Shown here in pieces: positions 12,089 to 40,381 of a stretch of DNA of 64,000 bases (its first letter is position 1; the number at the start of each line of letters is the position of its first letter). The stretch covers positions 28,106 through 92,105 of the forward strand of contig JAJFLU010000033.1 in the NCBI GenBank assembly GCA_021772515.1, given 5' to 3'. The notes beneath the pieces are model-generated. The model was not told the DNA's origin, made no database searches, and saw only the letters and a list, made by a program, of their open reading frames with translations. The translations under genes were made by a program, and so were the position numbers. The DNA is from Opitutales bacterium (GTDB lineage Bacteria > Verrucomicrobiota > Verrucomicrobiia > Opitutales > UBA2987).

Positions 12089-12949
12089 TCAGTAAAGCAA
12101 TTCGATCCAGCGTTCACCGGCTACGAGCTCGGCCTTTCGCCGGTTCCATTTCTCGGCAGAACCCGCCAGCCTGGCAAACACTACATCCAACTCGTCGCGG
12201 ATGACTTCCAAGCCTGCCAGGTAAACGAAGGTTTTGGAATCTGAAAGCATTTTCCATAGCTCTTTGCCCCGCGATTCCAGGGCGCTCCCCCAATCGATCG
12301 CATCCGACCAATGGGGCCTGCTGCTTAAAGCCGAAATCGCTTCGAAGGTCTGCACGTCGTAATATTGGGCGAAATCATTTCTCTTGTCGTTCATGTAAAA
12401 GAGGTCCAGACCGGTTTTCCCCCCGTAGAAAAGCCGAACTTGGCCTTCGAATTGGGGAGTTTTCCCGTAAAGATGCTTAATAAAAGCCCGAAATGGCGCG
12501 ATTCCGGTGCCCGCTCCAATTAGTATCAGGGATGTGTCGGGTTCCTCCGGCGCCTCGAAGGCCTGACCGTAAGGACCGGTTAGGAACAGCGTGTCATCAA
12601 CGCTCAAATCGCAAAGATAGTTCGAGGCGACGCCCCGGTATTCCTCACCACTAAATTCGTCTATGTAGCTACAGCGGCGCACACAAATATGAACCAGTGT
12701 GTTGCCTTGGCTGGTTGTTTCCGCCAAGTCGGCGATGCTATAAAGCCTGAAGTGCCGATCCTGGCCGAACTCCTTTTGCCCCGGCGCCAGCACCCCGATG
12801 TTTTGTCCCAGCGCGACAGAAAAATCGCTATCGTCAAGCTGTAGGACAATATCCCGCACCTCTTCGGTTGATTCAGTCGGCGTAATGCGGTCCGTGGCAA
12901 CCACCCTGGCTTTGTACTGATGTTTTTTATCGTAATCCTGCAAACGCAT
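12089..12949 (-). CDS. Plant-type ferredoxin-NADP+ reductase (FNR)
   Basis: FRLYSIAD is the FAD-binding RLYSIA-type motif and LIGAGTGIAPFRAF is the NADP-binding motif. The protein ends in a terminal aromatic residue (ELLY). A strong AGGAGG lies 8 nt upstream of the ATG. Confidence 0.85.
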   Translation of the reverse strand: MRLQDYDKKHQYKARVVATDRITPTESTEEVRDIVLQLDDSDFSVALGQNIGVLAPGQKEFGQDRHFRLYSIADLAETTSQGNTLVHICVRRCSYIDEFSGEEYRGVASNYLCDLSVDDTLFLTGPYGQAFEAPEEPDTSLILIGAGTGIAPFRAFIKHLYGKTPQFEGQVRLFYGGKTGLDLFYMNDKRNDFAQYYDVQTFEAISALSSRPHWSDAIDWGSALESRGKELWKMLSDSKTFVYLAGLEVIRDELDVVFARLAGSAEKWNRRKAELVAGERWIELLY

Positions 12950-13181: not shown

Positions 13182-13199
13182 TAGTAATAAATAAATTCG

Positions 13200-13781
13200 C
13201 TAATTTGAGAGTCCGGCAAAGCCCATGAAGCAGATGGATAGCAGCCCCGCCAGCATCAGGGTGATAGCGGTTCCTTTTACGAGATCGGGCGTTTTGGCCA
13301 GTTCCAGTTTTTCGCGCAGCCCAGCCATCAACACCAGCGCCAGGGTAAAGCCAAAACCGGCCCCCAGCGCATAGACTATTGACTGCACAAAGCCGTAACC
13401 CTTGTTGGTTTGAAAGAGGGCGAGGGCCAAAATCGCGCAATTTGTGGTGATGAGGGGAAGAAAGATGCCGAGGGCGCGGAAGAGGATCGGGCTGACTTTT
13501 TTGATGAACATCTCGACCAGTTGCACCGTCGAGGCAATCACGGCGATGAACGAGATCAGTTTCAGGTAAGGTGCGTCTATTTGAACCAACAAAAGCTGGA
13601 TCCCGAAGGCGCACATCGAACTGACCAGCATGACAAAGGTGACTGCCCCGCCCATGCGGGTGGCCGTGCCGAGCTTACCCGACACTCCCAAAAAGGGACA
13701 GATGCCCAGGAAGTAGGCCAACACGAAGTTGTTGATCAGACATGCGTTGATGAAGATCGACCAAAGTGAATCGCTATTCAT
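13200..13781 (-). CDS. rnfA: Rnf complex subunit A
   Basis: From the internal ATG the sequence reads MNSDSLWSIFINACLINNFVLAYFLGICPFLGVS...GIFLPLITTNCA, collinear with RnfA/RsxA. The ATGA start overlaps the rnfE stop. Confidence 0.9.
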   Translation of the reverse strand: MNSDSLWSIFINACLINNFVLAYFLGICPFLGVSGKLGTATRMGGAVTFVMLVSSMCAFGIQLLLVQIDAPYLKLISFIAVIASTVQLVEMFIKKVSPILFRALGIFLPLITTNCAILALALFQTNKGYGFVQSIVYALGAGFGFTLALVLMAGLREKLELAKTPDLVKGTAITLMLAGLLSICFMGFAGLSN

Positions 13782-14428
13782 GCCGTTGCCTCCTTTAAAG
13801 TTTCCCGGCGAGCCCTCGATTGCTCGAACCAGTTGAAGAACACGAGCCAGCCCGCGAGAGTGAAAAACCCGCCCGCCGGAAGCACCATGACGACCCATTC
13901 CTGATAGTGATCTCCAAATAATTGCAGACCGAACAGGCTTCCGTAACCGAATATTTCACGCACCGCGCCCAGGCAGAGTAGCGCTACGGTAAACCCTATT
14001 CCCATTCCTAGTCCGTCCAGGATTGAACGAAAAACACCATTTTTTGAGGCGAAAGCCTCCGCCCGGCCAAGGATCAGGCAATTGACGACTATCAACGAAA
14101 TGAAGGCTCCCAAAGCTTTGTGCAGTTCCAGACTGATTGCCTGAATCAGGTAATCGACGATGGTGACAAATGTTGCGATAATCAGGATGAAGGTGACTAT
14201 CCGCACCTGTTTGGGCACGAAGTTGCGAATCGAGGAAACGACGATATTTGACATGAGCAGCACAAATGAGGTCGCCAACCCCATCGCCAGCGCGTTTTCC
14301 GCAGTATTGCTGACGGCCAGGACCGGACACATCCCGAGCACTTGGACAAAGACCGGGTTTTGTTTCCACAAGCCTTTCAGAAACTCGTCTGTCCCCGTTG
14401 TCGTAACCTGTTTTGTTGTGTTAGCCAT
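13778..14428 (-). CDS. rnfE: Rnf complex subunit E
   Basis: GLWKQNPVFVQVLGMCPVLAVS...GAFISLIVVNCLILGRAEAFASKNG is collinear with RnfE/RsxE. Confidence 0.9.
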   Translation of the reverse strand: MANTTKQVTTTGTDEFLKGLWKQNPVFVQVLGMCPVLAVSNTAENALAMGLATSFVLLMSNIVVSSIRNFVPKQVRIVTFILIIATFVTIVDYLIQAISLELHKALGAFISLIVVNCLILGRAEAFASKNGVFRSILDGLGMGIGFTVALLCLGAVREIFGYGSLFGLQLFGDHYQEWVVMVLPAGGFFTLAGWLVFFNWFEQSRARRETLKEATA

Positions 14429-14429
14429 T

Positions 14430-15137
14430 TTAATCCCGATTATTCGGGTCTCTAAAGTCAGTCATTTGCCGACGGATTTTCGGAATCCACCAAACCGTGC
14501 TTTCTCGCAGCATGTCGGCCGTCGCCCGCGAGGTGATAGTCGCGCCGGTAATTCCGTCGATCTGCCAGGACTCAGTCTTTTTGCCTTGCTTGACGAATTC
14601 GATTGGATGGGCCACTGCGGCTCCGTCGGGCGACAGGCTCACGTCGAGATCGCCAAAGTTGCTCTGGAAATCTTCATCGGTCTCTATGCGGTCACCCAGA
14701 CCGGGAGTTTCACGACTTTCGAGCACACTTATGCCGAGGATGGATTCAGATTCAATCGAATAGCCATAGAGCAGCCTGACAACATCCTGATAGCCCATGC
14801 CCCGAGCTTCAATCGCCAGTCCGACAAGGGAATGCTGATCGTCATAACCGGCAAAAACGAGATCCGAGCCCTCGCTGTCGGGAGAAGTTGGCTCAAAACG
14901 GTTATCGTCAGTCAGGCGAAAGGCGGCGCTGGCTATTGCCTCCGGCAGCACCTCGAAAATGGCCTTCTGTCGCAGTTCGATCTTATTTTGCTGAATGACG
15001 GGACCGGTTAGCTCAAACACGGATACAATGGCCAGACCACAAACTAAGCCAATGCCCACCACCGCCCGGTACATCGGCCAGACTTTGACCCTGGGAGCGG
15101 TTTGTGGGGGATTGGCGGGTGTTCTCCTCTCGCTCAA
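14430..15137 (-). CDS. rnfG: Rnf complex subunit G (FMN-binding)
   Basis: It has an N-terminal TM helix and the covalent-FMN motif context DGITGATITSRA. Confidence 0.85.
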   Translation of the reverse strand: MSERRTPANPPQTAPRVKVWPMYRAVVGIGLVCGLAIVSVFELTGPVIQQNKIELRQKAIFEVLPEAIASAAFRLTDDNRFEPTSPDSEGSDLVFAGYDDQHSLVGLAIEARGMGYQDVVRLLYGYSIESESILGISVLESRETPGLGDRIETDEDFQSNFGDLDVSLSPDGAAVAHPIEFVKQGKKTESWQIDGITGATITSRATADMLRESTVWWIPKIRRQMTDFRDPNNRD

Positions 15138-16156
15138 GGTGTCTGCCTCCGTTTTTTTGTGCCGTAAACCCGTGGTTGAATCCAGTTGTCGATATGGGGC
15201 GAAACCGCATTACCCAGAAGGATGGCATACATGACGCCTTCGGGCATACCTCCCCAGACGCGAATCACCACCACCAGCAATCCGATGAGGACGCCATAAA
15301 GCTCGCAACCAAGGTGTGTCATGGGCGAAGCCACCATATCGGTCGCCATGAAAACCGCTCCGAGCATCAATCCTCCGGAAAACAACATGAAAAGCGGTCC
15401 GGCGTATTTGGCGGGATCGATCAATTGAAGGAGGCCACTGCAAAGCGCCACCGTCAGGAAAATGGTGACCGGAATCCGCCAGCTCATTATTTTCCGCATT
15501 ACCAGATAGACTCCGCCCAGTAAAATCAGCAGGGCGCAGGTTTCGCCGGTCGAGCCTGAGACATAACCCAAGAGCAGGTCGGTCGGTTCGGTCATTACGC
15601 GGTCGAACTTCCAGCCCGCGAGCGGAGTTGCCCCCGAGATACTGTCGTAAACCGGTTTGGTAAAAGGCCAGGCAAGGGTCGAGGATGGCAGTTGAGTAAA
15701 GCGATCCACCGGCATCGTGGGCCAGGTGGTCATGGCCACGGGAAAGGCGGCCTGGAGCAGCGCCCGGCCAACCAATGCAGGATTGAAGGGATTATAACCC
15801 AGCCCACCGAAAAGGAATTTACCCAATCCCACCGCCATTACGCCGCCCACCGCCACCATCCATACGGCCAAACCGGGTGGAAGGGTGAGACCATAGAGAA
15901 GACCGGTTACCACTACGGACCAATCACCCACGCTGGAATTCCGGCCAGTCAGGCGGCACAGGAGATGTTCGGTCACCAAACAGGAAGTAACCGCAGTGCC
16001 GAGGGTGATGAGCGCGGCCAGGCCGAACGCATAGACGGCGAAGGCTGTCACCGGCAGCAGCGCCAGAACCACGTTGAACATGATGGCGTTCACGCTCTTT
16101 CCACCGGCGATGTGGGGAGAGCTGCGGATTTCAAGCGTTTTGGTCCACCGCACCAT
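15134..16156 (-). CDS. rnfD: Rnf complex subunit D
   Basis: The N-terminus contains SSPHI, the protein is polytopic, and the flavinylation motif SGATPL is present (DSISGATPLAGWK). Confidence 0.9.
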   Translation of the reverse strand: MVRWTKTLEIRSSPHIAGGKSVNAIMFNVVLALLPVTAFAVYAFGLAALITLGTAVTSCLVTEHLLCRLTGRNSSVGDWSVVVTGLLYGLTLPPGLAVWMVAVGGVMAVGLGKFLFGGLGYNPFNPALVGRALLQAAFPVAMTTWPTMPVDRFTQLPSSTLAWPFTKPVYDSISGATPLAGWKFDRVMTEPTDLLLGYVSGSTGETCALLILLGGVYLVMRKIMSWRIPVTIFLTVALCSGLLQLIDPAKYAGPLFMLFSGGLMLGAVFMATDMVASPMTHLGCELYGVLIGLLVVVIRVWGGMPEGVMYAILLGNAVSPHIDNWIQPRVYGTKKRRQTP

Positions 16157-16157
16157 A

Positions 16158-17498
16158 TCAGGCCGTCACTTTCATTTTGCGTACCGCCGCTTTGGCGATG
16201 CGAAATTGCTGAACCAATGGGATATGGGACGGGCAAACGAAGGTGCAACAGCCGCATTCGAAGCAATCCATCAAGTGAAAATCATCGACCATTCGCCGGT
16301 AATGGTCCTGCTCCGCCAGCAGACCGAGTTGTGAAGGATTGAGGAAAATTGGGCAGGCATCCACACAATAACCACAGCGGATACAAGGATACTGCGGGTG
16401 TCCGTCCCGGAATCCGGTTTCCCGTGTGGTGAAAGCGATCACCCCGGTTGTGCCCTTGGTAATCGGGATGTCCAGGCTGGAAACGGCCTGGCCCATCATC
16501 GGACCGCCCAGGAAAACTCGGGTAATGTCGTCCTCAACACCCACAGTTTCAAGAACGAACCGTAGCGGAGTTCCAATCTGGATGCGGTAATTGCCCTTGT
16601 TTTTAACGGCAGGCCCCCCGACCGTGATGACCCGCTCCTGAATTCCCTTACCGTGCGGCAGAAGCTGCCCGATCTCGGCCGTGGTGGCGACATTTACACA
16701 GAGTGCATGGACATCTAGCGGTAGGCCGCCGGAGGGGATTTCCCGATCCAGAAGGGCGGTGATGAGCAATTTTTCTGCGCCCTGTGGGTATTTAACCGGC
16801 AAGACTTCGAGCTCGATTCCCGAACCATCGGGTATGGTGGCGCGTAAAGTTTCCGCCGCGTCGGGCTTATTGGCCTCCACCGCGATAATCGTTCTTGTGG
16901 CACCGGTAGCCTTCATCAAATAGGGGATACCTGCCATGACATCGACAGAGTGTTCCAGCATCACCCGGTGGTCGGTTGTGAGGTAAGGTTCACACTCGGC
17001 TCCATTGATCACCAGGGTGTCGACAAACTTTCCTTCGGGAATCCGCAGCTTGGCATGGGTGGGAAAACCGGCGCCCCCCAGGCCCACTACCCCTGCTTGC
17101 TGAACGGCAGCCACGATCTCCTCGGAGTCCGCCGTGGAGGCGTCGCAGGCGGCCCCCTCCATAATCTCCTGGGTCGAGGCGGGAAATGGTTCAATGAAAA
17201 TTCCGGGAACCATCTTTCCGGTGATGCTGGGCGTAAGCCCGATGTGGCAGACAATTCCAGAGGCTGGCGCATGCATGGCCACGGAAACAAAGCCGTCGTG
17301 CTTCGCAATACACTGGCCGCGGGTCACCTCCTGACCCTCCCGAACCACCGCCACCGCAGGTTTGCCGATATGCTGGGAAAGGGGAACCACAAGCGACGGC
17401 GCAAAGGGAAACTGCCGAATGGGCAATCCGCTGGTGTCATCCTTCGATTCCGGCGGATGAATGCCGTGGGCGAAGGTTTTGCTCCTAAAAATATTCAT
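16158..17498 (-). CDS. rnfC: Rnf complex subunit C
   Basis: GLGGAGFPTHAK is the nucleotide/flavin site. There are two ferredoxin motifs, CIRCGYCVDACP and CFECGCCTFVCP. Length is 446 aa. Confidence 0.9.
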   Translation of the reverse strand: MNIFRSKTFAHGIHPPESKDDTSGLPIRQFPFAPSLVVPLSQHIGKPAVAVVREGQEVTRGQCIAKHDGFVSVAMHAPASGIVCHIGLTPSITGKMVPGIFIEPFPASTQEIMEGAACDASTADSEEIVAAVQQAGVVGLGGAGFPTHAKLRIPEGKFVDTLVINGAECEPYLTTDHRVMLEHSVDVMAGIPYLMKATGATRTIIAVEANKPDAAETLRATIPDGSGIELEVLPVKYPQGAEKLLITALLDREIPSGGLPLDVHALCVNVATTAEIGQLLPHGKGIQERVITVGGPAVKNKGNYRIQIGTPLRFVLETVGVEDDITRVFLGGPMMGQAVSSLDIPITKGTTGVIAFTTRETGFRDGHPQYPCIRCGYCVDACPIFLNPSQLGLLAEQDHYRRMVDDFHLMDCFECGCCTFVCPSHIPLVQQFRIAKAAVRKMKVTA

Positions 17499-17517
17499 TC
17501 TAAACCGCTTGGTAGGT

Positions 17518-20500
17518 TCAATTATATTTCTCTGCCCTTGCGATCAATTGTTCGATGCGCTTCTCACTGCGATCCAAGGGCAAACCGGGATGAATAACCT
17601 GCGCGGTGCAGCGTTCGGCGGCTTTCACCAGATCCTTAAAGGATCCTGCTGAACCGTCTTTGATAAAAGCTTTCTTGTTTTCGTTATATTCAAAAATGGC
17701 AGAGTTGATTTTGATGCATTCGTCACAGGAGGTGCATTGCTCGGTATCGATCCACGGGGCCATATAGTCTCCGTTGCCGATACCTTGGGGGGAGCCCTCA
17801 GTCGCGACAGAGCTTGGCGTTGCCTGAGTCAAGGCCGTAACGGCAGCAGCTCGGTCGCCAACCAATTGCAGGAGGCCCGCTGTAATGCGACCAGTCAGCT
17901 CCTGCTTTACCTCAGCTTCAATGTCCGCACGGGTAGTTGGCTGTTTTTCGCCGATACGGGCTATCGCCCGGAGCATGGTCCAGAAGTCGCGCCGCTCCTC
18001 GCAGGATTGCACAATGGGCTCGGCCACCAGCAGCCTGGTAAGCTCCTTTTTACGGTTAACACTCCAAACATAGGGGAAAAAGTCTTCCCGTTCGTCATCC
18101 GATAGCTCCAAAAACTCGGCCAGCGGGAGCATGTTTTCATTCCATGTGTCCTGCGGAGCCAAACGAAAATGCTTGCGAAACCTGACCTCCGTAATTGCGA
18201 AATCGGCGAAAGTCATGGGGATTTCCATCGATTTTTCGTCTCCGTCTTCGAGATAATTCAAAGTGTAGGTGGGCCAGTCTTGATCGACAGCCGGGTTGCC
18301 CTCGAGTTCGAAGCAATCCTCGGGGCGGCTGCCCTCGTCTGGATTATAACGAAATAAGGGATAGGCGCGGGATTCCACCACGAGCTTGGCCTGATTGGCG
18401 CTCATATCATCACCGATGCCATGCTCGGGCTGACAGGTGGCGTAGAGGTTGAAGAGGGCGGGCCGCCGGGCCTTTAACCCCTCAATGAAACCTTCGATCA
18501 TATGGTTGGCATGGGCAATGGTGCTTTGCATGACATAGGTTGTGCGGTGAGCCATGCCGATAAGCCCTATTTCCTTGCGAACTTCTTCCTTGCCCTTTTG
18601 GGCTTTGCCGTACTGGGCCATATCCGAGATCTGACCGAAAAAACCGGAAGTGCAGGCTTGGCCACCTGTATTGGAGTAAACCTGCGTGTCCAAAACCAGA
18701 ACTTTGATCGGTTTCCCGGAAGAGAGGGCGCGGGAGAGATTCTGGAATCCGATGTCGTACATGGCGCCATCGCCCCCCATCGCGACGACGGGCGGGCAGA
18801 GTTCCCACTCTTCGTCACTGAATTTCCTCCAATCGAAATAGGTCATAAACTCATCATGGATGCTCGGATCGTAGTCTCCTGACAATTCGAGCTCGGCCAA
18901 CCGGATTGCCTTAAATCCCTCCGCCATCTTGGCCATGTGACCCTCGAATACGCCCATCGCCATCGAAGCTGGATCCTGGAACAGGTGGTTGGCCCAGGGG
19001 AAAGGATAGGGATTAAACGGGTAAGTGCTACCCCAAACCGAGGTGCATCCGGTCGCATTTACCATACCCATTTTTGCCCGTCCACGTCCGGTAGTTCCCT
19101 CGATGTATTTCCACTTCAGGTTCTTGAGTTTACCAACCGAACGGGTGACCCGGCGCAGCCAATCCTGGTCTATCGGCTCACCACCGGTCAACTGCTCCAG
19201 ACGTTCCGCTATACTGGCCAGGGTGACATCTCCACCACTCATCTCTTCGACTACATTGGCAAAGGTAGCCGGGTCGCCGACATTGATTCCCTTTACCAAC
19301 TGTAGTTGAATGTGTTTTTCCAGTTTTTCGATTAACTCGGTCAGGTAGGCCAAGTGGCGGTCGATGCGCGGCTGCATGAGCGCTTCAACAGTCGCCACAA
19401 AAAGGTGAACCACGGTTTTTTCACCACAACCCAGACAAGCGCCATCCCCACTGGTGAATGAAAGGTAGTTTCTCTTGTCGAGGAGGACGGTTTCAAGGGC
19501 ACCGATGCCCTCTTCTACGTTGTCTACCCGAATGAATTTCTTCGGCGTATTGGGCAAATCGAGCCAAAATTTCCAATTCTGGCGCAGCTTTTCGATTGAT
19601 TCGCCGGTCTGGGTAATGGGCCTCAAAGCGTCGTCGTCGCATACCTCTACGCACTCCATGCAGCCCTTGCAGGTGTAGGGGTTGACGGTGATGCTAAGGA
19701 GACCACCGGCACCTTTTTTCTTTTTTTCAGGAACCGTGAAATAAGGTCTGGAGAGCGCGAACTGGAAGTCGGAGATTTCCTCCCGGAAAAGATCGAATTC
19801 CTTTTTCAGCTTACCGTTTGTCTCCGCCCCATTCTCCAGTTTTTCATTTTTGAGGGTTTTCTGGATGGCCTCATCCATCATCAAGGTGACATTGTCGGTC
19901 TCCTCAGCTTTGGCAAAAATGGCACGCAGATGGCGTTCCATGACCCGCACAGCTTTGGACAAATGTTTGACCTCTTTGCCCTGCTTGCGCATACGGCTAA
20001 CGACAGTATCGAAAATCTGTGTTACCTCGTTGACCAAACCGGGGATTGCCGTGTCTGGACATACCGTATAGCAATTGCCGCAGGCGGTGCAGTTTTCCGC
20101 GATCCATTCGGGGTGCTGAAAACGGATGCCTGTCATGTCGCGAAACAGCGCCGTAACCGCCGGCATCACACCGAGGCCGATAAAGGGGTCTGTGATACTG
20201 TCCGTGCCCATGCCTCGGGCATAGAAACTACCAGTCTGCTCCCAAAAACGGTGGATGTCCGAAGCGGGGGACTTGCTCTTCGGCTCGCGTTTGAGCATGA
20301 CAGGCAACGGGGGCTCGGTGGTCGCTGTTTTTTCACCGGCCTTTCTTTCCGTGATCGAGCCGTGGGCCACCTCCTGCACCTCGTCGAAACCCCTCTTGAC
20401 GACCTGCATGTTTTCCTGAACAACACGTGCGCCCTTGGCACCGAATTTGTGTTGGAGCTGGTTGTGGATGGCTTCGAGTAATTTTTCCTCTGAAAATCCA

Positions 20501-22452
20501 GCCTGCAACGCGACCGGGGAGGCGGCGAAAAACGCACCCTGAAAGGCGATGCCCTGCATGCGCAACTGCAGGTCGGGATCGGTGGCCACATCGCGGGCAA
20601 TCTGAAAGGCATCAAGATAGAAAAGTTTGATGTTCTTCTCCACCATGATCTTGCGATAATAGGGCGATATGCTCATCCAAACGGCCTCGGGCGAAGCCTG
20701 GTCGCTCTGGATGATGAAGATGCCACCCTCCTTCAGCCCGGCAAGGGCATTGGTATGCTGGAAGACGTTGGGATCGGGCGAAAGCACCACATCGACGTAG
20801 AAGTATTCGCAGTTGACCCGGATCGGTTCCGGCGCCGCCGAGAGGTAGTAAGTGGTCGGCTGTCCCTTCTTTTCCGAGCCATATTTGGGGTTGGCCTTGA
20901 TGTGGAAACCGAGCAGATCGAACAAGGTCATGGCCAGATTTTTGCCGGTTGTGATAGCGCCCCACCCTCCCACCGAGTGAAAACGCACCGTGATACTGCC
21001 CTCGGGCATGAGGTTGGGATTTTCGGAACCGTGGACGGCCAACTCCCGCACATTGGGGTAACCGGATTCGATATTTTCCTGGTGTATCTGCTGCTTTGGA
21101 CTGATGGGCTTGTCCCGCAGGAAATCGATTGAAAGGTAAAAGAACTTCTTGTGCGCTCCTTCCGGCAGCATGTTCTCGATTGCTCCGATAATTCCTTCGG
21201 GCTGTAAATCGCGGCTGCCCATGCCAAAGGAACCCGAATACAAGGCCGGCGCTTCCGAGGCGGATTTGTAGGTTTCGAGATCCGGGTACGGCTTCCGCCT
21301 GGGGTCGCGGCCGTTTTCCAGACAGCGGCTCATGGTGGCTCGGATCTCACGCATTACCGGCAGGTCAACGGCCAGCGGTTGGTCGAGACGCTCAAGAATG
21401 GCGACCGCTTTTTTGCCCTTCAAAATACGACTCACCCAGTCTGCCGGAAAGGGGCGGAACATGAGGAGATCGACCACGCCGACCTTTAAGCCTCGGGTTT
21501 CGCGTAAATAATCGGCAACCACTTCGGCGGATGGTATGATGCTGCCTTGACCGAGGATCAAGTAATCGGCGTCCTCGGCCCGGTAGGACATGACGCGGTC
21601 GTAGCGGCGTCCGGTCAATTCGTAAAACTCGTCGAAAGCCTGTTCGGACAGTTCTTCTATGTGATCGAAAAAGAAGGGCCGCTGGGCCGCCACGCTCTGC
21701 ATATAGGAATCCTGGTTCTGCACCAGCCCAGCCATCATAGGGTTGTCGACATCCCAAAGCTCGGGGATACGGCGTCGAGTGTCGCCGTAAATAATTCGCT
21801 GGGCCGGTGTCGGTGTGTCGATGATGTCCTCAGGGTGTCCGAGGTATTCCTCGATCAGCTCCCTTTCCGGAACCATGAGCGACTCGATCAGGTGGGTGGT
21901 GAGAAAGCCGTCCTGGGCAATGGCTCCGGGAGTCAGGGCCAACTCGGCAATGCGGTGCGAAATGATATTGAGATCGGCCGAGGACTGGGCGTCTTTGGCA
22001 AATAGCTGGAAGAAACCGGTGTCGTCGATGCAATGATAGTCGTCATGACCGGCGTGGACATTGAGGGTGGCCTTTGTCATGGCCCGCGCCCCGATATTGA
22101 GAACATAGGGGAGACGTTTGCCGACGGCCGCGTAGAGCGACTCGTGCATGTAGGCAATGCCCTGGCCGGAGGAGAAGTTGATGGCCCGGAGTCCGGTCAT
22201 GGAGAGTCCTGCGGTCACTGCGGCGGCGGCATGTTCGCCCTCCGGTTCAATAAAAATCAAGGGACGCCCGGAGATATTGACATGACCTTGGGCGGCGGCT
22301 TCGGCCCAATACTCTCCCATCTGGGTGGAGGGGGTGATGGGATAAGCGCCAGCGGCATCGCTCGACTCACGCTCACACATGATGACAGCCGTATTGCCAT
22401 CCAAAGCGGCTCGGCTTCCGGTATATTTGAATTTCTTCGCCTTAATCTTCAT
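17518..22452 (-). CDS. nifJ: Pyruvate:ferredoxin (flavodoxin) oxidoreductase, unusually long (1644 aa), with a fused C-terminal single-cluster ferredoxin module
   Basis: All PFOR hallmarks appear in order: YPITPST; GWGAITTGKN...KYGSEKKGQPT; CTACGNCYTVCP and CKGCMECVEVCD; GDGACLGCGEK; NATGCTSVWG; GGDGAMYDIG...LDTQVYSNTGGQ; and YATCQPEHG. An extra C-terminal CTSCDEC...C module follows. Confidence 0.9.
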   Translation of the reverse strand: MKIKAKKFKYTGSRAALDGNTAVIMCERESSDAAGAYPITPSTQMGEYWAEAAAQGHVNISGRPLIFIEPEGEHAAAAVTAGLSMTGLRAINFSSGQGIAYMHESLYAAVGKRLPYVLNIGARAMTKATLNVHAGHDDYHCIDDTGFFQLFAKDAQSSADLNIISHRIAELALTPGAIAQDGFLTTHLIESLMVPERELIEEYLGHPEDIIDTPTPAQRIIYGDTRRRIPELWDVDNPMMAGLVQNQDSYMQSVAAQRPFFFDHIEELSEQAFDEFYELTGRRYDRVMSYRAEDADYLILGQGSIIPSAEVVADYLRETRGLKVGVVDLLMFRPFPADWVSRILKGKKAVAILERLDQPLAVDLPVMREIRATMSRCLENGRDPRRKPYPDLETYKSASEAPALYSGSFGMGSRDLQPEGIIGAIENMLPEGAHKKFFYLSIDFLRDKPISPKQQIHQENIESGYPNVRELAVHGSENPNLMPEGSITVRFHSVGGWGAITTGKNLAMTLFDLLGFHIKANPKYGSEKKGQPTTYYLSAAPEPIRVNCEYFYVDVVLSPDPNVFQHTNALAGLKEGGIFIIQSDQASPEAVWMSISPYYRKIMVEKNIKLFYLDAFQIARDVATDPDLQLRMQGIAFQGAFFAASPVALQAGFSEEKLLEAIHNQLQHKFGAKGARVVQENMQVVKRGFDEVQEVAHGSITERKAGEKTATTEPPLPVMLKREPKSKSPASDIHRFWEQTGSFYARGMGTDSITDPFIGLGVMPAVTALFRDMTGIRFQHPEWIAENCTACGNCYTVCPDTAIPGLVNEVTQIFDTVVSRMRKQGKEVKHLSKAVRVMERHLRAIFAKAEETDNVTLMMDEAIQKTLKNEKLENGAETNGKLKKEFDLFREEISDFQFALSRPYFTVPEKKKKGAGGLLSITVNPYTCKGCMECVEVCDDDALRPITQTGESIEKLRQNWKFWLDLPNTPKKFIRVDNVEEGIGALETVLLDKRNYLSFTSGDGACLGCGEKTVVHLFVATVEALMQPRIDRHLAYLTELIEKLEKHIQLQLVKGINVGDPATFANVVEEMSGGDVTLASIAERLEQLTGGEPIDQDWLRRVTRSVGKLKNLKWKYIEGTTGRGRAKMGMVNATGCTSVWGSTYPFNPYPFPWANHLFQDPASMAMGVFEGHMAKMAEGFKAIRLAELELSGDYDPSIHDEFMTYFDWRKFSDEEWELCPPVVAMGGDGAMYDIGFQNLSRALSSGKPIKVLVLDTQVYSNTGGQACTSGFFGQISDMAQYGKAQKGKEEVRKEIGLIGMAHRTTYVMQSTIAHANHMIEGFIEGLKARRPALFNLYATCQPEHGIGDDMSANQAKLVVESRAYPLFRYNPDEGSRPEDCFELEGNPAVDQDWPTYTLNYLEDGDEKSMEIPMTFADFAITEVRFRKHFRLAPQDTWNENMLPLAEFLELSDDEREDFFPYVWSVNRKKELTRLLVAEPIVQSCEERRDFWTMLRAIARIGEKQPTTRADIEAEVKQELTGRITAGLLQLVGDRAAAVTALTQATPSSVATEGSPQGIGNGDYMAPWIDTEQCTSCDECIKINSAIFEYNENKKAFIKDGSAGSFKDLVKAAERCTAQVIHPGLPLDRSEKRIEQLIARAEKYN

Positions 22453-22515
22453 CGTGATAACTTTCTTTCACTTTCAATAAGAGGAGGATAATTTTTCTAA
22501 AAAATTGGTTTGAGA

Positions 22516-23391
22516 TCAGGTTGGCGCCTCGCGCAATGAGCCCTGGCGGATTATTTTGCGTGCCGCCCGTCCTTTCACGGTCCCTTTTTTGGCGTCGAGC
22601 CAAACGATGGCTCCAGTCGGACAACGCTGCGTCGCCTCCGCCGATTGGAAGCGGTTTTTAGTGTAATCGACCACCGGCAGATTACCCCGCATTTCAATCA
22701 GGCCTGGGGCGTCCATGGCGCAACGTGCGCAGGCGGTGCAGGCAACCTGGCAGTCATCCAGGATTTCATCGCCTTCCTCCTGAGAGCGGCAGGCCACCCA
22801 GAGCCGATGGCTTTGCGGGTGCAGGGAAAACAAGTCTTTGGGGCATGCCGTCACGCAGTCGCCACAGGCGGTGCATAGATCCTCGTCAACCACCGGCAGG
22901 TGGTGCCGGTCCATCGTAATGGCGTCGAAGTCGCAGGACACCGCGCAGTCATCCAGCCCCAGGCAGCCCCAAAAACAGCCCTTGCCGCCGCCCGCGACCA
23001 ACGTTGCCGCCGCGCAGGATTCGAGGCCCACGTAACGGGCATGATTGCGGGATACATTGGCGCCACCGGCACAGGCCAGCCTCGCTACACGCTTCTCCTC
23101 GGCCCCCACATCAACCCCAAGATAGGCGGCTATCAGGATGTGTTCTTCAGGCGGACTGACGGTGCACTTTCCCGGCAGCACAACGCCTTCGACCAATGCT
23201 TCGGCAAAAGGACGGCACCCCGGATAGCCGCAACCTCCGCAGTTGGTATGCGGGAGCATATCTTCGACCGCATCGATACGCGGATCCTCCTCAACATGCA
23301 GCCAGTGGTTAGCCACAACAAGGAGCGAGGCCAGAGCCAGTGTAAGCCCACCGATTGTGGCAACAGCGGTTAGGACTAGCATAGAGTTCAC
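22516..23391 (-). CDS. rnfB: Rnf complex subunit B (polyferredoxin type)
   Basis: An N-terminal TM helix is followed by CGGCGYPGCRPFAEAL. Several Fe-S Cys motifs follow (CTACGDCVTACP, CQVACTACARC, CPTGAI). Confidence 0.85.
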   Translation of the reverse strand: MNSMLVLTAVATIGGLTLALASLLVVANHWLHVEEDPRIDAVEDMLPHTNCGGCGYPGCRPFAEALVEGVVLPGKCTVSPPEEHILIAAYLGVDVGAEEKRVARLACAGGANVSRNHARYVGLESCAAATLVAGGGKGCFWGCLGLDDCAVSCDFDAITMDRHHLPVVDEDLCTACGDCVTACPKDLFSLHPQSHRLWVACRSQEEGDEILDDCQVACTACARCAMDAPGLIEMRGNLPVVDYTKNRFQSAEATQRCPTGAIVWLDAKKGTVKGRAARKIIRQGSLREAPT

Positions 23392-23789
23392 GGAAAATGA
23401 CGCAAAGTGCGGACGTTGGAAACGAGGAGGGAAGTTTGCCAGTCAAACGGAAAATAACACATTTCTAATATTTTTCTTTCTTAGTTGAATTCGATCTGTG
23501 CCAGATACTTCTAATTTTTTTGGCCGATTGTGAAAAAAGGGAGGTTAAATCGAGATTCCCCAGACGAGGGGCTTGAGTCTTTGAAAATATCGACCTGACA
23601 CCTCTCCTGTGGAGCTTCCCGCGTTCGACTGTATATTACCCCTTTAATTACGCTTTTGCAATTTTTTTCTTGGTATCTACCAATGGAATAGGCGGTAATT
23701 GCTATTCGTTGGGGCTGTCGTCCTTGGCCCGCGATGCGTGCAAGGCATAGGATATCGACCCCAATGAATGATGCCCTCCAGTTGAAGAT

Positions 23790-24278: not shown

Positions 24279-24280
24279 GA

Positions 24281-25573: not shown

Positions 25574-25601
25574 TTGCGCTCCTTGTGTCTTTAGATTTCA
25601 A

Positions 25602-26795: not shown

Positions 26796-26823
26796 AATGA
26801 AACCAAAAGTGAAAAAATAATAT

Positions 26824-37479: not shown

Positions 37480-39396
37480 ATGACATCTTCCTCCTCACTG
37501 GCAGCGGATAAGATTAAGCCAACCAAAAAAAAGTCTGCGACCATCGAGCCTCAGTCTGTTTCCAACGCAATTGTTGAGATTGTCAGTGATTCAGGTGAAG
37601 GATCGCAAACTGCGGGCCAGTTATTTGGAATCGTCAGCGCCCGGATGGGCAATGGCACCTGGACGGTCGAACTCATACCGGCAGAGATTGAGCCCCCCGC
37701 CCGGTCCCCGGCCGGAGCGAGCGGAAATCGCATTCGCTTCGGAACCGATGTGGTTACGAATATGGGTGATACGGCTGATGTGGTAGTCGCCTTCAACGAG
37801 CAGGTGCTTTACAGCCGGATCGACAAGGATGCCTTTCGTGAGGGGACCCATATTTTTATCGAAAACAAATGGGGTTCCGTTCCCCAGGAGGCGATTCGCA
37901 AGGCTTACGCGACCGCACTCGCCGATTTTCAGACACGGGGATATGTGGTCCACGAGATCGCCATGGAAAAGGAATGTTTACGCCATGTGACCGATGCCCG
38001 GCGTGGTAAAAACATCTGGGTATTAGGTCTTCTCTGCGCACTGTACGATCGCGATATCGGCATCGCATCGGAGGAAATCGAGCGCAAACTTTCACGCAAA
38101 GGAGCCAAGGTCGTTGAGAACAATCTCACGCTCCTGCGGGCCGGTTATGAGTGGGGTCTCGCCAATCTGCCATTTCGCTACACCGTTGCGGTTAAGCCGC
38201 CGGATAAGCCCATGGTTGTTATGAATGGCAATCAGGCGGTCGGGCTCGGGGCGATGGCCGCAGGGTTTGAAATCTGCTCTATGTATCCAATCACCCCGGC
38301 TACATCGGCCTCGCACTACCTCGCCTCCGAATTCAAGAAAGCCGGTGGTTTTCTCCATCAGGCGGAGGACGAGATCGCCGCCATCGGGTTCGCCATCGGC
38401 GCTTCCTATGCCGGAAAGACCGCCCTGACGATCACCTCGGGGCCGGGTCTGGCGCTTAAAACAGAATTCATCGGTCTGGCCGTCATGTCAGAGATTCCAC
38501 TGGTAATTGTTGATGTTCAGCGAGGCGGACCCTCCACCGGGCTACCCACCAGAGTCGAGCAATCGGATCTCCTGGCCGCACTTTTCGCCTCTCCGGGGGA
38601 CTCCCCAAAAATCATTCTGGCGCCATCGACCATCGACGAGTGCTTCCACTTCATGATCACAGCCCGGAGGTTGGCGGAGATGTTTCGGACTCCGGTCATT
38701 GTCCTGACAGATGCCAATTTGGCCACGGGGGTGCAGCCATTTCCGAGGCCGAGGTTGAGCGAAAAGTGGTTGTCCCCTCCCCTCGACATGTCTCCCTGGG
38801 ATAAAAATGTGGACCCCTATGACTGGGATCCGGAAACGGGCCTTTCACAGCGCCCGGTTCCCGGTCAAAAAGACGGCAAATACATTCTCACCGGCTTGGC
38901 CCACGATGAAAAAAGTCATGTCGCCTACGTTTCAAGGATCAACCAGTACACCCATGACATGCGGAGCCGCAAATTGGCAACGCTGCAACATTCGCTCAAT
39001 AAGCCAATCGTGAATGGGGAACCTGAAGGTGACGTTCTGGTGGTCGGTTGGGGATCTACCCGTGGCGCCATCGAGGAGGCGGTGGGGAGAGTTCGCGATG
39101 ACGGGGAAAAGGTTTCGAGCCTCCATCTGCGTATTCTATCGCCCCTCGAACCCGGTTTGAAAGAAGTGCTCTCGGAGTTCAAACGAGTAATAACGGTGGA
39201 AATCAATTACAGCGATAATCCCGATCCGGGGCAGCCGGAGTCCAACAATCGGCGCTATGCCCAACTCGCATTTTGCCTGCGGTCACACACTTTCATCGAT
39301 GTTGAATGCCTTTCCATGGTCCACGGCATCCCGTTTTCTCCGGGTACAATCGAAGCTGAAATACGGCGAATCCTGAAAGCCCTTTCCACGGTTTGA
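37480..39396 (+). CDS. 2-oxoacid:ferredoxin oxidoreductase alpha subunit (fused gamma+alpha, KorA type)
   Basis: VSDSGEGSQTAGQLF marks the gamma domain. NGNQAVGLGAMAAG...MYPITPATS...QAEDEIAAIG...SGPGLALK marks the alpha domain. Length is 638 aa. Confidence 0.85.
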   Translation: MTSSSSLAADKIKPTKKKSATIEPQSVSNAIVEIVSDSGEGSQTAGQLFGIVSARMGNGTWTVELIPAEIEPPARSPAGASGNRIRFGTDVVTNMGDTADVVVAFNEQVLYSRIDKDAFREGTHIFIENKWGSVPQEAIRKAYATALADFQTRGYVVHEIAMEKECLRHVTDARRGKNIWVLGLLCALYDRDIGIASEEIERKLSRKGAKVVENNLTLLRAGYEWGLANLPFRYTVAVKPPDKPMVVMNGNQAVGLGAMAAGFEICSMYPITPATSASHYLASEFKKAGGFLHQAEDEIAAIGFAIGASYAGKTALTITSGPGLALKTEFIGLAVMSEIPLVIVDVQRGGPSTGLPTRVEQSDLLAALFASPGDSPKIILAPSTIDECFHFMITARRLAEMFRTPVIVLTDANLATGVQPFPRPRLSEKWLSPPLDMSPWDKNVDPYDWDPETGLSQRPVPGQKDGKYILTGLAHDEKSHVAYVSRINQYTHDMRSRKLATLQHSLNKPIVNGEPEGDVLVVGWGSTRGAIEEAVGRVRDDGEKVSSLHLRILSPLEPGLKEVLSEFKRVITVEINYSDNPDPGQPESNNRRYAQLAFCLRSHTFIDVECLSMVHGIPFSPGTIEAEIRRILKALSTV

Positions 39397-39427: not shown

Positions 39428-40381
39428 ATGCTGGATATAAAAACTCCAAAGACGACCGAACCAAAACCTCGTTTTTTCACGATCGAAGACTATGAGGGGC
39501 AGGTGCCCCGGTGGTGTAGCGGCTGCGGCGATTTGCCCGTGCTTGCCGCTGTCCAACGCCTATGCCGGGACGAACAGCTTCTGCCCGAAATGACCGTTGT
39601 AGTATCGGGAATCGGTTGTTCGAGCCGGTTCCCCCACTATATGAAAACCTATGGGTTTCACGGGCTTCATGGGCGCGCCTTTCCCGTAGCCTGCGGAATA
39701 CGCAGCCGCCGCCCCGATCTCAATATCTTTGTTGCGACCGGAGATGGAGACTGCTGCGCAATCGGCGCGGGGCATTGGATTCATGCCATTCGCTACAACA
39801 TGAAAATGGTCGTCATGCTATTTGATAATAACATCTATGGCCTGACAAAAAAACAAACGTCACCCACCACGGCAAAGCATGCCAACACCCTCACGCACCC
39901 CAAAGGCTCGTTTATCAGTCCCCTCAACCCAATCGCGGTAACCTTGAGTATTTCAAATGTTTCCTTTGTCGCGCAGACTGTGGACTGGAATCCACCTCAT
40001 CTCTACCAAACCCTCCTTGCCGCTCACCGTCATCCCGGATTGGCTTTTGTGCGCATCCTGCAACGCTGTCCGCACTTTACGGCGGAGGTCTTTGAGCCCT
40101 GCCAGAGGGATCCCTCACTTCTCCTCCTGATGAAACACCCCAATGGAATATCCACCGACGACACGGTGAATAAGATATTTAAAAACCAGGTGGAACACGA
40201 TCCGACCAATCTCCTTGAAGCGCAAGGTTTGGCGGTGAGAGAGGATTGCCACCCGATTGGCCTTTTTTACCGCAATGAATCAGCCGAGCGTTACGACGAT
40301 TTTTCCAAATCGGGTATCGAAATGGATCGTTCGGAGAAAATTAAGGCAGTCGAAGAGGAACTGGATCGCCTTCAAATATAA
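39428..40381 (+). CDS. 2-oxoacid:ferredoxin oxidoreductase beta subunit (TPP-binding, KorB type)
   Basis: WCSGCGD, GIGCSSRFP and ATGDGDCCAIGAGHWIHAIRYNMKMVVMLFDNNIYGLTKKQ (the GDG...N TPP motif) are present. Length is 317 aa. Confidence 0.85.
   Translation: MLDIKTPKTTEPKPRFFTIEDYEGQVPRWCSGCGDLPVLAAVQRLCRDEQLLPEMTVVVSGIGCSSRFPHYMKTYGFHGLHGRAFPVACGIRSRRPDLNIFVATGDGDCCAIGAGHWIHAIRYNMKMVVMLFDNNIYGLTKKQTSPTTAKHANTLTHPKGSFISPLNPIAVTLSISNVSFVAQTVDWNPPHLYQTLLAAHRHPGLAFVRILQRCPHFTAEVFEPCQRDPSLLLLMKHPNGISTDDTVNKIFKNQVEHDPTNLLEAQGLAVREDCHPIGLFYRNESAERYDDFSKSGIEMDRSEKIKAVEEELDRLQI

What the first reader, a model, noticed from the sequence alone, without database searches (positions are those of the whole stretch)
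17518..22452. Oversized PFOR (1644 aa versus the usual ~1170-1230 aa) with internal insertions and a fused C-terminal ferredoxin
Seen in sequence: all canonical PFOR motifs are present and in order, but the protein is about 400 aa longer than the classical enzyme. Extra sequence lies between the two ferredoxin-domain Cys motifs: about 125 aa separate CTACGNCYTVCP from CKGCMECVEVCD. More extra sequence lies between GDGACLGCGEK and NATGCTSVWG. There is also an about 130-aa tail (linker plus ferredoxin module).
Established knowledge: the Desulfovibrio africanus-type PFOR is about 1230 aa with seven domains. Longer natural fusions are known, such as the Euglena and Cryptosporidium PNO, but those carry a P450-reductase module, not a ferredoxin.
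Inference: this is a distinct long PFOR subclass. The insertions are exactly the regions retained in the 817-aa paralogue, so they may form a shared structural platform.
Basis: partly seen in the sequence, partly recalled or inferred. Interest (0 to 1): 0.6.

Follow-up and report, generated by a model that had tools for sequence, protein, structure and literature searches.

The report
Long PFOR hard-wired to Rnf
The oversized pyruvate:ferredoxin oxidoreductase is real, belongs to a widespread but apparently uncharacterised clade that carries its own ferredoxin on a flexible tether, and in every relative examined its gene sits inside an operon for the ion-pumping Rnf complex, which suggests a direct pyruvate-to-NAD(P) electron route.

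Summary
Window 17518-22452(-) is one uninterrupted 1644-aa ORF with every PFOR motif in order. Compared with Moorella PFOR it has an ~84-aa helical insertion in the ferredoxin domain, a ~102-aa helical insertion after the first proximal-cluster cysteines, and a 261-aa tail. The tail is a conserved beta-rich domain, a variable disordered linker and a single-[4Fe-4S] ferredoxin.

It is not a frameshift fusion. More than 120 protein clusters and 80 genome loci from at least 10 phyla have the same 1620-1675-aa architecture at 58-88% identity. The length class is therefore common. My literature searches found no characterisation of it.

The gene lies in rnfB-PFOR-rnfCDGEA-FNR, and rnfC follows it directly in 67 of 67 informative loci, including clades only 30-50% identical.

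The 817-aa "paralogue" is a cofactor-less copy of the PFOR C-terminal half. It keeps both insertions, a dead TPP domain, the tail and the tethered ferredoxin, and it always follows korAB.

Best reading: tethered-ferredoxin 2-oxoacid oxidoreductases that feed the Rnf complex directly, or are fed by it. The direction of electron flow and any physical docking are not shown. This is a new variant of a known kind. Interest about 0.7.

The parts
17518..22452 (-). PFOR-L: 1644-aa long-type pyruvate:ferredoxin oxidoreductase (whole ORF including the stop codon)
21670..22359 (-). Domain I (POR_N, residues 32-261). YPITPST, the catalytic Glu in EPEGEHAAA, and the Arg123 equivalent of Da Arg114 are all conserved.
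20383..20970 (-). Domain III (POR/gamma, residues 495-690)
19447..20127 (-). Ferredoxin domain V (residues 776-1002) with two CxxCxxCxxxC motifs, for the medial and distal [4Fe-4S] clusters
19723..20040 (-). Insertion 1 (residues 805-910), between the two Cys motifs. Three helices in the AF2 model. Length is 102-106 aa across relatives.
18304..19446 (-). Domain VI (residues 1003-1383). Proximal-cluster Cys are C1006, C1009, C1135 and C1340. The TPP motif is GGDGAMYDIG...SNTGGQ.
19078..19401 (-). Insertion 2 (residues 1018-1125). Four helices, including one of ~46 residues. Retained in the 817-aa family.
17962..18303 (-). Conserved tail domain (residues 1384-1497), beta-rich plus helices, confidently modelled
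17758..17961 (-). Variable linker (residues 1498-1565). Majority-residue frequency 0.47, length 62-93 aa, pLDDT <50 at q1532-1560.
17521..17757 (-). C-terminal single-cluster ferredoxin (residues 1566-1644). Ligands C1572, C1575, C1578 and C1613. Conserved terminal peptide ...ARAEKYN.
22516..23391 (-). rnfB (291 aa): N-terminal membrane helix, FeS domain and Fer4 domains
16158..17498 (-). rnfC (446 aa; TIGR01945 486 bits, above cutoff). Its start is 19 nt from the PFOR-L stop.
15134..16156 (-). rnfD
14430..15137 (-). rnfG (FMN_bind)
13778..14428 (-). rnfE
13200..13898 (-). rnfA. The ORF as listed overlaps rnfE, so the true start is probably near 13780.
12089..12949 (-). Plant/cyanobacterial-type ferredoxin-NADP reductase-like gene (286 aa, ends in ...ELLY)
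37480..39396 (+). korA-type 2-oxoacid:acceptor oxidoreductase alpha (gamma+alpha fusion; TIGR03710 527 bits, above cutoff)
39428..40381 (+). korB-type beta subunit (TPP-binding)
40396..42849 (+). 817-aa pseudo-PFOR C-half paralogue. It has insertion 1-like and insertion 2-like helices, a dead TPP domain, the tail, the linker and a single-cluster ferredoxin. It ends in ...AQAAQFN.

Best explanation
PFOR-L is a catalytically intact pyruvate:acceptor oxidoreductase of a distinct long clade. Besides the usual TPP site and three [4Fe-4S] clusters, it has two helical insertions flanking the cluster chain, an extra conserved tail domain, and a fourth [4Fe-4S] cluster. That fourth cluster sits in a small ferredoxin domain on a 60-90-residue disordered tether.

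I propose that the tethered ferredoxin is the enzyme's built-in acceptor. It would swing between the distal cluster and the partners encoded in the same operon. One partner is RnfB/Rnf, giving NAD+ reduction coupled to Na+/H+ export. The other is the plant-type FNR, giving NADP+ reduction. Pyruvate oxidation would then be wired to NAD(P)H and ion pumping without a free low-potential ferredoxin pool. That would make sense in the largely aerobic hosts.

The korAB-encoded 2-oxoacid oxidoreductase would obtain the same tethered ferredoxin and helical platform from the 817-aa cofactor-less paralogue.

Shown: the architecture, the conserved motifs, the variable linker, the invariant rnf synteny, and the paralogy.

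Inferred: electron transfer from the tethered Fd to RnfB or FNR, physical docking, the oxidative direction, and pyruvate as substrate.
For: - Catalytic equipment is complete. Present are domain I Ile-Thr (YPITPST), Arg123, the Glu in EPEGEH, GDG...SNTGGQ, all 12 internal cluster Cys, and 4 Cys in the C-terminal Fd.
- Linker and ferredoxin conservation differ sharply. The linker is the least conserved and most length-variable segment (0.47; 62-93 aa) and is disordered in the model. The Fd and its terminal peptide are highly conserved (0.80).
- Synteny is invariant. rnfC directly follows PFOR-L in 67/67 informative loci from >=10 phyla, with a median gap of 25 nt. rnfDGEA follow. The FNR gene is present in 54/59 loci. 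rnfB is always in the cluster.
- The linkage persists in clades only 30-50% identical (L084, L086, L087).
- A long PFOR without the C-terminal Fd (P0310) is not next to rnf.
- Catalytically dead versions still sit between rnfB and rnfC and keep the Fd-domain cluster motifs. This argues for a role within an Rnf-linked electron path.
- korAB plus the 817-like gene lie in the same super-operon as rnfB and PFOR-L in L081, L084 and L087, and korAB abut the cluster in L030, L033, L040 and L058.
- The same C-terminal peptide, [RQK]A[AE]x[YF]N, ends PFOR-L and the 817-like proteins.
- The FNR gene has a plant-type profile and a terminal Tyr.
Against: - No biochemical or interaction data exist. Synteny shows functional linkage, not contact.
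- The AF2 model is a monomeric fragment without cofactors. I could not access its coordinates, so inter-cluster distances and the placement of the insertions relative to the clusters were not measured.
- Rnf is reversible, and aerobes usually run it from NADH towards ferredoxin. The oxidative direction is therefore a preference, not a result.
- Five loci (Gallionellaceae, one Verrucomicrobia MAG) lack the FNR gene.
- The whole-protein score is below the TIGR02176 cutoff (415 vs 911), so substrate identity is not guaranteed.
- The claim that hosts are aerobic rests on my own knowledge of the named isolates, not on a tool result.
Confidence: 0.45

Rival explanations
1. Same tethered-ferredoxin/Rnf coupling, but running in reverse. 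Rnf would use NADH plus the ion-motive force to reduce the tethered ferredoxins. PFOR-L would then act as a pyruvate synthase, and KorAB/817-aa as a 2-oxoglutarate synthase. That is anaplerotic or rTCA-type CO2 fixation in oxic or microoxic cells.
For: - The two enzymes linked to Rnf catalyse exactly the two ferredoxin-dependent carboxylations of the reductive TCA route.
- L081 (a sulfur-oxidising Lucinoma symbiont) places them next to malate dehydrogenase and a fumarate-reductase-like flavoprotein.
- L087 inserts sucCD into the operon.
- Papers on thiotrophic symbionts propose PFOR/Kor as carboxylases alongside Rnf (PMC6593406, PMC6315080).
- From my own knowledge: Rnf in aerobes such as Azotobacter and Rhodobacter generally works from NADH towards Fd, and many hosts probably also have PDH.
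Against: - An FNR in the operon would drain reduced ferredoxin to NADPH, short-circuiting a reductive mode.
- Many hosts are ordinary heterotrophs or methanotrophs with no rTCA genes.
- No data on direction exist.
Confidence: 0.3
2. PFOR-L is a soluble, free-standing PFOR whose fused ferredoxin and insertions mainly protect the cluster chain from O2, comparable in purpose to domain VII of D. africanus PFOR. Its position in the rnf operon would reflect only co-regulation, with ordinary soluble ferredoxin or flavodoxin carrying electrons between the two.
For: - The extras surround the Fe-S-bearing domains V and VI.
- The hosts are largely aerobes (record titles; the aerobic lifestyle is from my own knowledge).
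- A precedent exists for a protective C-terminal extension in D. africanus PFOR (established knowledge).
Against: - This does not explain why catalytically dead PFOR-L copies are kept between rnfB and rnfC.
- It does not explain why a cofactor-less paralogue keeping only the platform and tethered Fd accompanies korAB.
- It does not explain why the gene order PFOR-L then rnfC is invariant over >=10 phyla.
Confidence: 0.15
3. The enzyme's physiological substrate is a 2-oxoacid other than pyruvate.
For: - The score is far below the PFOR equivalog cutoff.
- Ile123 of the D. africanus enzyme is Val here, and the neighbouring residues differ.
- Upstream genes encode LeuCD-like, IPMDH-like, HMGL-like and CoA-transferase enzymes that handle branched or substituted acids.
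Against: - The pyruvate-contacting Thr, Arg and Asn equivalents are conserved.
- The separate korAB enzyme already covers a second 2-oxoacid.
- The low score is largely explained by the insertions splitting the alignment.
Confidence: 0.1

Closest known systems
Homodimeric single-chain PFOR (D. africanus 1B0P, M. thermoacetica 6CIN; NifJ/YdbK, TIGR02176)
   Same: - Same domain order I-II-III-V-VI.
- Same TPP motif and three [4Fe-4S] ligand sets.
- Same pyruvate-contacting Thr, Arg and Asn.
- It is the best sequence hit (2.7e-87) and best fold hit (5e-34).
   Different: - 410-470 aa longer.
- Two ~85-105-aa helical insertions in domains V and VI.
- A new tail domain and a tethered fourth-cluster ferredoxin.
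- Scores below the family cutoff.
- Encoded inside an rnf operon.
- Found mainly in aerobic lineages.
Pyruvate:NADP+ oxidoreductase (PNO) of Euglena and Cryptosporidium
   Same: A PFOR covalently extended by its own electron acceptor. With the operon's FNR, the system could likewise pass pyruvate electrons to NADP+.
   Different: PNO carries a fused NADPH-cytochrome-P450-reductase module (FMN plus FAD/NADPH). No such domain is in this ORF. Here the fused module is a [4Fe-4S] ferredoxin, and the FNR is a separate gene.
Rnf (ferredoxin:NAD+ oxidoreductase, ion-translocating), RnfABCDGE
   Same: All six subunits are encoded around PFOR-L with normal family matches. The known role is to exchange electrons between low-potential ferredoxin and NAD(H).
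   Different: Known Rnf complexes use a diffusible ferredoxin. In the literature I could search, none is described with a 2-oxoacid oxidoreductase gene inserted between rnfB and rnfC.
Three-subunit 2-oxoglutarate:NADP+ oxidoreductase (KorABC) of Azoarcus evansii (from my own knowledge)
   Same: A two-subunit KorAB-type OFOR that has a dedicated extra electron-transfer subunit and delivers electrons to a pyridine nucleotide.
   Different: As I recall, the extra subunit there is an FNR/ferredoxin-type flavoprotein. Here it is an 817-aa dead copy of a PFOR C-terminal half with a tethered single-cluster ferredoxin.

Membership tests
PFOR, single-chain homodimeric type (TIGR02176) | Domain order: alpha (I-II), gamma (III), delta/ferredoxin (V), beta/TPP (VI), all in one chain | tested here: met
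   Pfam order POR_N, PFOR_II, POR, Fer4, TPP_enzyme_C. Collinear alignment to 6cin and 1b0p.
PFOR, single-chain homodimeric type (TIGR02176) | TPP/Mg motif GDG...N(N) in domain VI, and the catalytic Glu in domain I | tested here: met
   GGDGAMYDIG...YSNTGGQ at 1225-1265 and EPEGEHAAA. These are invariant in the close clade.
PFOR, single-chain homodimeric type (TIGR02176) | Ligands for three [4Fe-4S] clusters: 2 x CxxCxxCxxxC, plus CxxC...C...C | tested here: met
   C787/790/793/797, C928/931/934/938 and C1006/1009/1135/1340 align to the Moorella ligands.
PFOR, single-chain homodimeric type (TIGR02176) | Whole-protein score above the curated equivalog cutoff | tested here: not met
   415.3 bits against a cutoff of 911.35.
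PFOR, single-chain homodimeric type (TIGR02176) | Pyruvate- and CoA-dependent reduction of ferredoxin or flavodoxin | not testable with these tools
   Only the conservation of the Thr, Arg and Asn substrate contacts could be checked.
Pyruvate:NADP+ oxidoreductase (PNO) | C-terminal fused flavodoxin-like FMN domain plus FAD/NADPH-binding domains | tested here: not met
   No flavodoxin, FAD_binding or NAD_binding match in the ORF. The FNR is a separate gene at 12089-12949.
Rnf complex operon | Genes for RnfA, B, C, D, E and G with family-level matches | tested here: met
   - RnfC TIGR01945: 486 bits vs cutoff 246.
- RnfB TIGR01944: 82 bits vs 68.7.
- RnfD PF03116 at 1.9e-107.
- RnfE and RnfA PF02508.
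- RnfG TIGR01947: 90 bits, below its cutoff of 102, but the FMN_bind domain is present.

Single-cluster ferredoxin (Pfam Fer4_13) | CxxCxxC...C ligand set and a score above the gathering threshold | tested here: met
   26.4 bits vs 24.5. The four Cys are 1572, 1575, 1578 and 1613. It hits D. gigas ferredoxin I (1dax) at 3e-4.
Plant-type ferredoxin-NADP+ reductase (for ORF 12089-12949) | FNR-family profile match and a C-terminal aromatic residue | tested here: inconclusive
   The PetH models match at 1e-41 to 1e-43 but far below the equivalog cutoffs. The protein ends in Tyr. Cofactor specificity was not tested.

The most novel reading that the evidence does not exclude
PFOR-L is a plug-in catalytic head of a modular Rnf supercomplex, and KorAB joins the same supercomplex through the 817-aa pseudo-PFOR adaptor. 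Together they would form a ferredoxin-pool-free, oxygen-compatible, ion-translocating 2-oxoacid:NAD+ oxidoreductase, reversible to an ion-driven pyruvate/2-oxoglutarate synthase. The helical insertions, the tail and the conserved C-terminal ...A[AE]x[YF]N peptide would form the docking platform. In some lineages the PFOR scaffold has lost catalysis and survives purely as an Rnf-bound electron wire.
Probability: 0.3. Interest if true: 0.85.

Novelty: new variant of a known kind. Interest (0 to 1): 0.7.

Why it matters
PFOR and 2-oxoglutarate:ferredoxin oxidoreductase are usually treated as oxygen-sensitive enzymes of anaerobes that need a diffusible low-potential ferredoxin. Here a highly conserved version carries its own tethered ferredoxin. 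It is genetically welded to the Rnf ion pump in Planctomycetota, Verrucomicrobiota, Bacteroidota, Myxococcota, methanotrophs, iron oxidisers and thiotrophic symbionts.

If the coupling is direct, two consequences follow:
- Many aerobes could conserve extra energy from pyruvate and 2-oxoglutarate oxidation.
- Or they could drive the two hard carboxylations of the reverse TCA route with NADH plus membrane potential.

Either would change how carbon and energy budgets are read from genomes of abundant environmental bacteria. Cultured hosts exist, for example Methylotuvimicrobium buryatense, which to my knowledge is genetically tractable. The question is therefore directly testable.

Tried and rejected
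- **Frameshift or fusion artefact:** rejected. Full-length collinear homologues occur in >120 clusters and 80 loci, including complete genomes.
- **First AF2 model:** built from 36 close homologues for residues 761-1644. It was poor (pLDDT 59.8) and was not used. A second model with 74 sequences including distant clades was good (pLDDT 85.2). Its coordinates are not exposed to scripts, so I could not measure cluster-to-cluster distances or insertion contacts.
- **817-aa protein search:** the word-indexed search found only 3 relatives because the family evolves fast. Its family had to be assembled from genomic neighbours instead.
- **P0001 look-up:** the exact-sequence look-up found no contig record.
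- **Promoter/terminator scan of 11200-29200:** no different from shuffled sequence.
- **Nine literature searches:** none found a paper describing a long PFOR inside an rnf operon or the 817-aa family. The nearest are symbiont papers that mention Rnf, dimeric korAB and a 'PFOR-like' gene without analysis. The library covers open-access papers and bioRxiv only, so absence is not proof.
- **RnfB missing in the 48%-identity clade (L086):** considered and rejected. tblastn finds rnfB just upstream, split by a frameshift.
Full report
**1. The observation**

Window 17518-22452 on the minus strand is a single ATG-initiated ORF of 1644 codons with no internal stop.

Pfam finds the PFOR domains in canonical order:
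- POR_N at 32-261
- PFOR_II at 295-375
- POR/gamma at 495-690
- 4Fe-4S motifs at about 780-803 and 927-1010
- TPP_enzyme_C at 1221-1333
- A separate single-cluster ferredoxin, Fer4_13, at 1568-1621

The best solved relatives are M. thermoacetica PFOR (6cin, 2.7e-87) and the Desulfovibrio enzymes.

Residue-level mapping to 6cin gives the following:
- An ~84-aa insertion at residues 805-910, between the two ferredoxin-domain Cys motifs.
- A ~102-aa insertion at residues 1018-1125, between GACLGCGEK and NATGCTSVWG.
- A ~31-aa deficit before the GDG motif.
- Several 17-44-aa surpluses in the N-terminal half.
- A 261-aa tail after the last PFOR-homologous residue.

All catalytic and cofactor ligands are present:
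- YPITPST and the Arg equivalent of D. africanus Arg114
- The domain I Glu
- GDG...SNTGGQ
- Twelve internal cluster cysteines
- Four cysteines in the C-terminal ferredoxin

**2. Not an artefact, and not rare**

A search of 5.8 billion proteins returned more than 120 clusters at >=72% identity. All are 1618-1674 aa. They are annotated only as 'pyruvate ferredoxin/flavodoxin oxidoreductase' or '2-oxoacid:acceptor oxidoreductase family protein'.

A scan of one genome per species returned 80 loci matching residues 1-1644 at 58-88% identity. They come from:
- Verrucomicrobiota (an Opitutales MAG is closest, at 88%)
- Planctomycetota
- Acidobacteriota
- KSB1
- Bacteroidota (Cyclobacteriaceae, Saprospiraceae, Flavobacteriales)
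- Gammaproteobacteria (Methylotuvimicrobium buryatense 5G, Methylomicrobium, Halioglobus, Wenzhouxiangella)
- Gallionellaceae
- Gemmatimonadota
- Myxococcota
- Calditrichia
- Kiritimatiellae
- Hydrogenedentota

An exhaustive HMMER search with residues 761-1644 found 1481 50%-identity representatives at E<=1e-30. Many are 1450-1780 aa and only 27-49% identical, so this is a large and diverse 'long PFOR' radiation.

The protein scores 415 bits against the NCBIfam PFOR equivalog, whose cutoff is 911. It is therefore a separate subclass rather than a NifJ orthologue.

**3. Anatomy of the extras**

With a 74-sequence alignment spanning distant clades, AlphaFold2 gave a confident model of residues 445-1644 (pLDDT 85.2, pTM 0.87). 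The model shows:
- Insertion 1 as three helices.
- Insertion 2 as four helices, including one of about 46 residues.
- Residues about 1395-1498 as a confidently modelled beta-rich domain followed by helices.
- Residues 1532-1560 as disordered (pLDDT <50).
- The terminal ferredoxin as a folded domain.

Conservation across 36 relatives matches this picture:

| Segment | Majority-residue frequency | Note |
|---|---|---|
| TPP core | 0.90 | |
| Terminal ferredoxin | 0.80 | |
| Tail domain | 0.79 | |
| Insertion 2 | 0.72 | |
| Insertion 1 | 0.64 | |
| Linker | 0.47 | length varies, 62-93 aa |

A conserved domain on a variable, disordered linker is the signature of a tethered, mobile module. The last residues (...ARAEKYN) are nearly invariant. 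Foldseek against the PDB matched only PFOR/OFOR chains.

I could not read the model coordinates. Where the insertions lie relative to the clusters is therefore inferred only from their positions in the sequence: within domain V, and between the proximal-cluster ligands.

**4.

The gene sits in a tight same-strand cluster:

| Gene | Coordinates | Note |
|---|---|---|
| rnfB | 22516-23391 | |
| PFOR-L | 17518-22452 | |
| rnfC | 16158-17498 | 19-nt gap after PFOR-L |
| rnfD | 15134-16156 | |
| rnfG | 14430-15137 | |
| rnfE | 13778-14428 | |
| rnfA | ~13200-13780 | |
| plant-type FNR-like gene | 12089-12949 | ends in Tyr |

Using the window proteins as tblastn probes on the 80 loci:
- rnfC follows PFOR-L directly in 67 of the 67 loci that have a complete 3' end and at least 1.5 kb downstream. 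The median gap is 25 nt.
- rnfCDGEA are complete in 63 loci.
- The FNR gene follows rnfA in 54 of the 59 loci with enough flank. It is absent in four Gallionellaceae/Nitrosomonadales loci (L057, L060, L061, L070) and in Verrucomicrobia MAG L001.
- rnfB is upstream of PFOR-L in 29 loci and after the FNR gene in 37.

The linkage also holds in distant clades:
- L086 (PFOR-L 48-52% identical): korA-korB-x-rnfB-PFOR-L-rnfCDGEA-apbE.
- L084 (about 33% identical): rnfB-PFOR-L-rnfCDGEA-korA-korB-817-like.
- L087 (about 27% identical): NuoF-like-korA-korB-832 aa-rnfB-PFOR-like-sucCD-rnfCDGEA-hemerythrin.

A long PFOR that lacks the C-terminal ferredoxin (P0310) is not next to rnf.

**5. The 817-aa 'paralogue'**

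ORF 40396-42849(+) is the third gene after korA (37480-39396) and korB (39428-40381), which form a two-subunit 2-oxoacid:acceptor oxidoreductase.

BLASTP aligns it to PFOR-L residues 1017-1644 (27% identity, 1e-67).

A profile-profile comparison of a five-member family alignment against the PFOR-L alignment extends the homology back to PFOR-L residue ~761 (probability 100%, E 1e-104, 745 columns). The alignment:
- Runs through insertion 1.
- Skips the region carrying the second ferredoxin motif (about 918-997).
- Resumes at the proximal-cluster segment.
- Continues through insertion 2, domain VI, the tail, the linker and the ferredoxin.

In the 817-aa family every internal cluster cysteine and the TPP motif are gone (for example LADADSIGG in place of GGDGAMYDIG). 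Only the terminal CxxCxxC...C ferredoxin remains as a cofactor site.

The family ends in the same peptide as PFOR-L...AQAAQFN...AKAAQFN...KRAEAYN...ERAAPYNSF.

It follows korAB in every lineage where I found it (window, L081, L083, L084, L087). In L081, L084 and L087 it lies in the same operon as rnfB and PFOR-L.

But the paralogue is a dead copy of the whole C-terminal half, not of the insertions alone.

**6. Pseudo-PFORs**

Within the long clade, P0147 and a group of 1394-1569-aa proteins (P0281, P0291, P0299, P0305, P0212, P0306-P0309) have lost several features:
- The domain I motifs.
- The proximal cluster (P0147 retains it).
- The TPP motif (in P0147 it is only degenerate: GDQ in place of GDG, with the Asn retained).

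They keep both ferredoxin-domain cluster motifs. Where context is known (L084, L087) they still lie between rnfB and rnfC.

This is hard to reconcile with simple co-regulation of a soluble enzyme. It suggests that the scaffold has an electron-relay or structural role tied to Rnf.

**7. Mechanism**

The best-supported reading is that PFOR-L oxidises pyruvate and passes electrons through its three clusters to its own tethered ferredoxin. That ferredoxin then serves the operon's two acceptors:
- RnfB/Rnf, giving NADH plus ion export.
- FNR, giving NADPH.

KorAB would obtain an equivalent tethered ferredoxin from the 817-aa adaptor.

What is shown and what is inferred:
- Shown: the architecture, the ligand conservation, the linker behaviour, the synteny and the paralogy.
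- Inferred: electron transfer to RnfB and FNR, physical docking, substrate and direction.

Because the Fd/NAD couple across Rnf is close to equilibrium with the membrane potential, the reverse mode is a serious rival. In that mode NADH and ion-motive force would drive pyruvate and 2-oxoglutarate synthases. The TCA-gene neighbours in thiotrophic symbionts favour it (PMC6593406, PMC6315080). The FNR gene and the heterotrophic or methanotrophic hosts favour the oxidative mode.

**8. Comparison with known systems, and novelty**

It works like a PFOR and meets the structural defining features of PFOR. It fails the curated equivalog score. It differs by the insertions, the tail, the tethered ferredoxin and the rnf embedding.

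It parallels PNO in fusing an acceptor to PFOR, but the fused module is different and the membership test for PNO fails.

Nine full-text searches found no description of this clade, its rnf linkage or the 817-aa family. The Endoriftia study mentions a 'PFOR-like' gene co-varying with dimeric korAB.

I classify it as a new variant of a known kind: common in genomes and apparently uncharacterised.

Noticed in passing
window 29071-37163: A methanol-type corrinoid methyltransferase system in what appears to be an Opitutales genome. It lies between the two oxidoreductase operons. Components:
- MtaB homologue at 31378-32766(-) (PF12176, 2.4e-169)
- URO-D/MtaA-like gene at 32817-33926(-)
- B12-binding corrinoid protein at 33957-34586(-)
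- DUF1638 at 34735-35502(+)
- RACo reductive activator at 35502-37163(+)
- Homocysteine S-methyltransferase-like gene at 29071-29979(+)
   Followed up: no
window 23790-28865 (-): Directly upstream of rnfB on the same strand lie five genes: an IPMDH/ICDH-like gene, an HMGL-like lyase or synthase, a family III CoA-transferase, and a LeuCD-like aconitase-family pair. They could be a citramalate or itaconate-type route that yields or consumes pyruvate and acetyl-CoA. The function was not examined.
   Followed up: no
P0147, P0281, P0291, P0299, P0305, P0212, P0306-P0309; loci L084 9001-13944 and L087 10001-14629: Full-length long-PFOR homologues that have lost the domain I catalytic motifs, the TPP motif (only degenerate in P0147) and, except P0147, the proximal cluster. 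They keep both ferredoxin-domain cluster motifs. Where context is known they still sit between rnfB and rnfC.
   Followed up: partly
C-termini of window 17518-22452(-) and 40396-42849(+); P0123, P0124, L087 6556-9051: A conserved terminal peptide ...[RQK]A[AE]x[YF]N is shared by PFOR-L and the 817-aa family, after the ferredoxin domain. It is a possible docking motif.
   Followed up: partly
L081 1371-4947 and L087 2122-3369: A NuoF-like protein (Complex1_51K + NADH_4Fe-4S, ~411-415 aa) precedes korA in two distant lineages. In L081 it lies with a Fer2/FAD_binding_2 flavoprotein pair and malate dehydrogenase. L087 also has sucCD inside the operon and a hemerythrin gene after rnfA.
   Followed up: no
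window 17518-22452(-), residues C1219, C1267, C1380: These are extra invariant or near-invariant cysteines in domain VI that are not cluster ligands in known PFORs: ELCPPVV, GGQACTSG and EDCFELEG. Their significance is unknown.
   Followed up: no
window 1-12000 versus 12000-41000: G+C content rises from about 0.47 to 0.52-0.57 at around 12 kb, where the FNR/rnf/PFOR-L cluster begins. Together with the 58-88% identity of the operon across phyla, this is compatible with horizontal acquisition. It was not tested.
   Followed up: no
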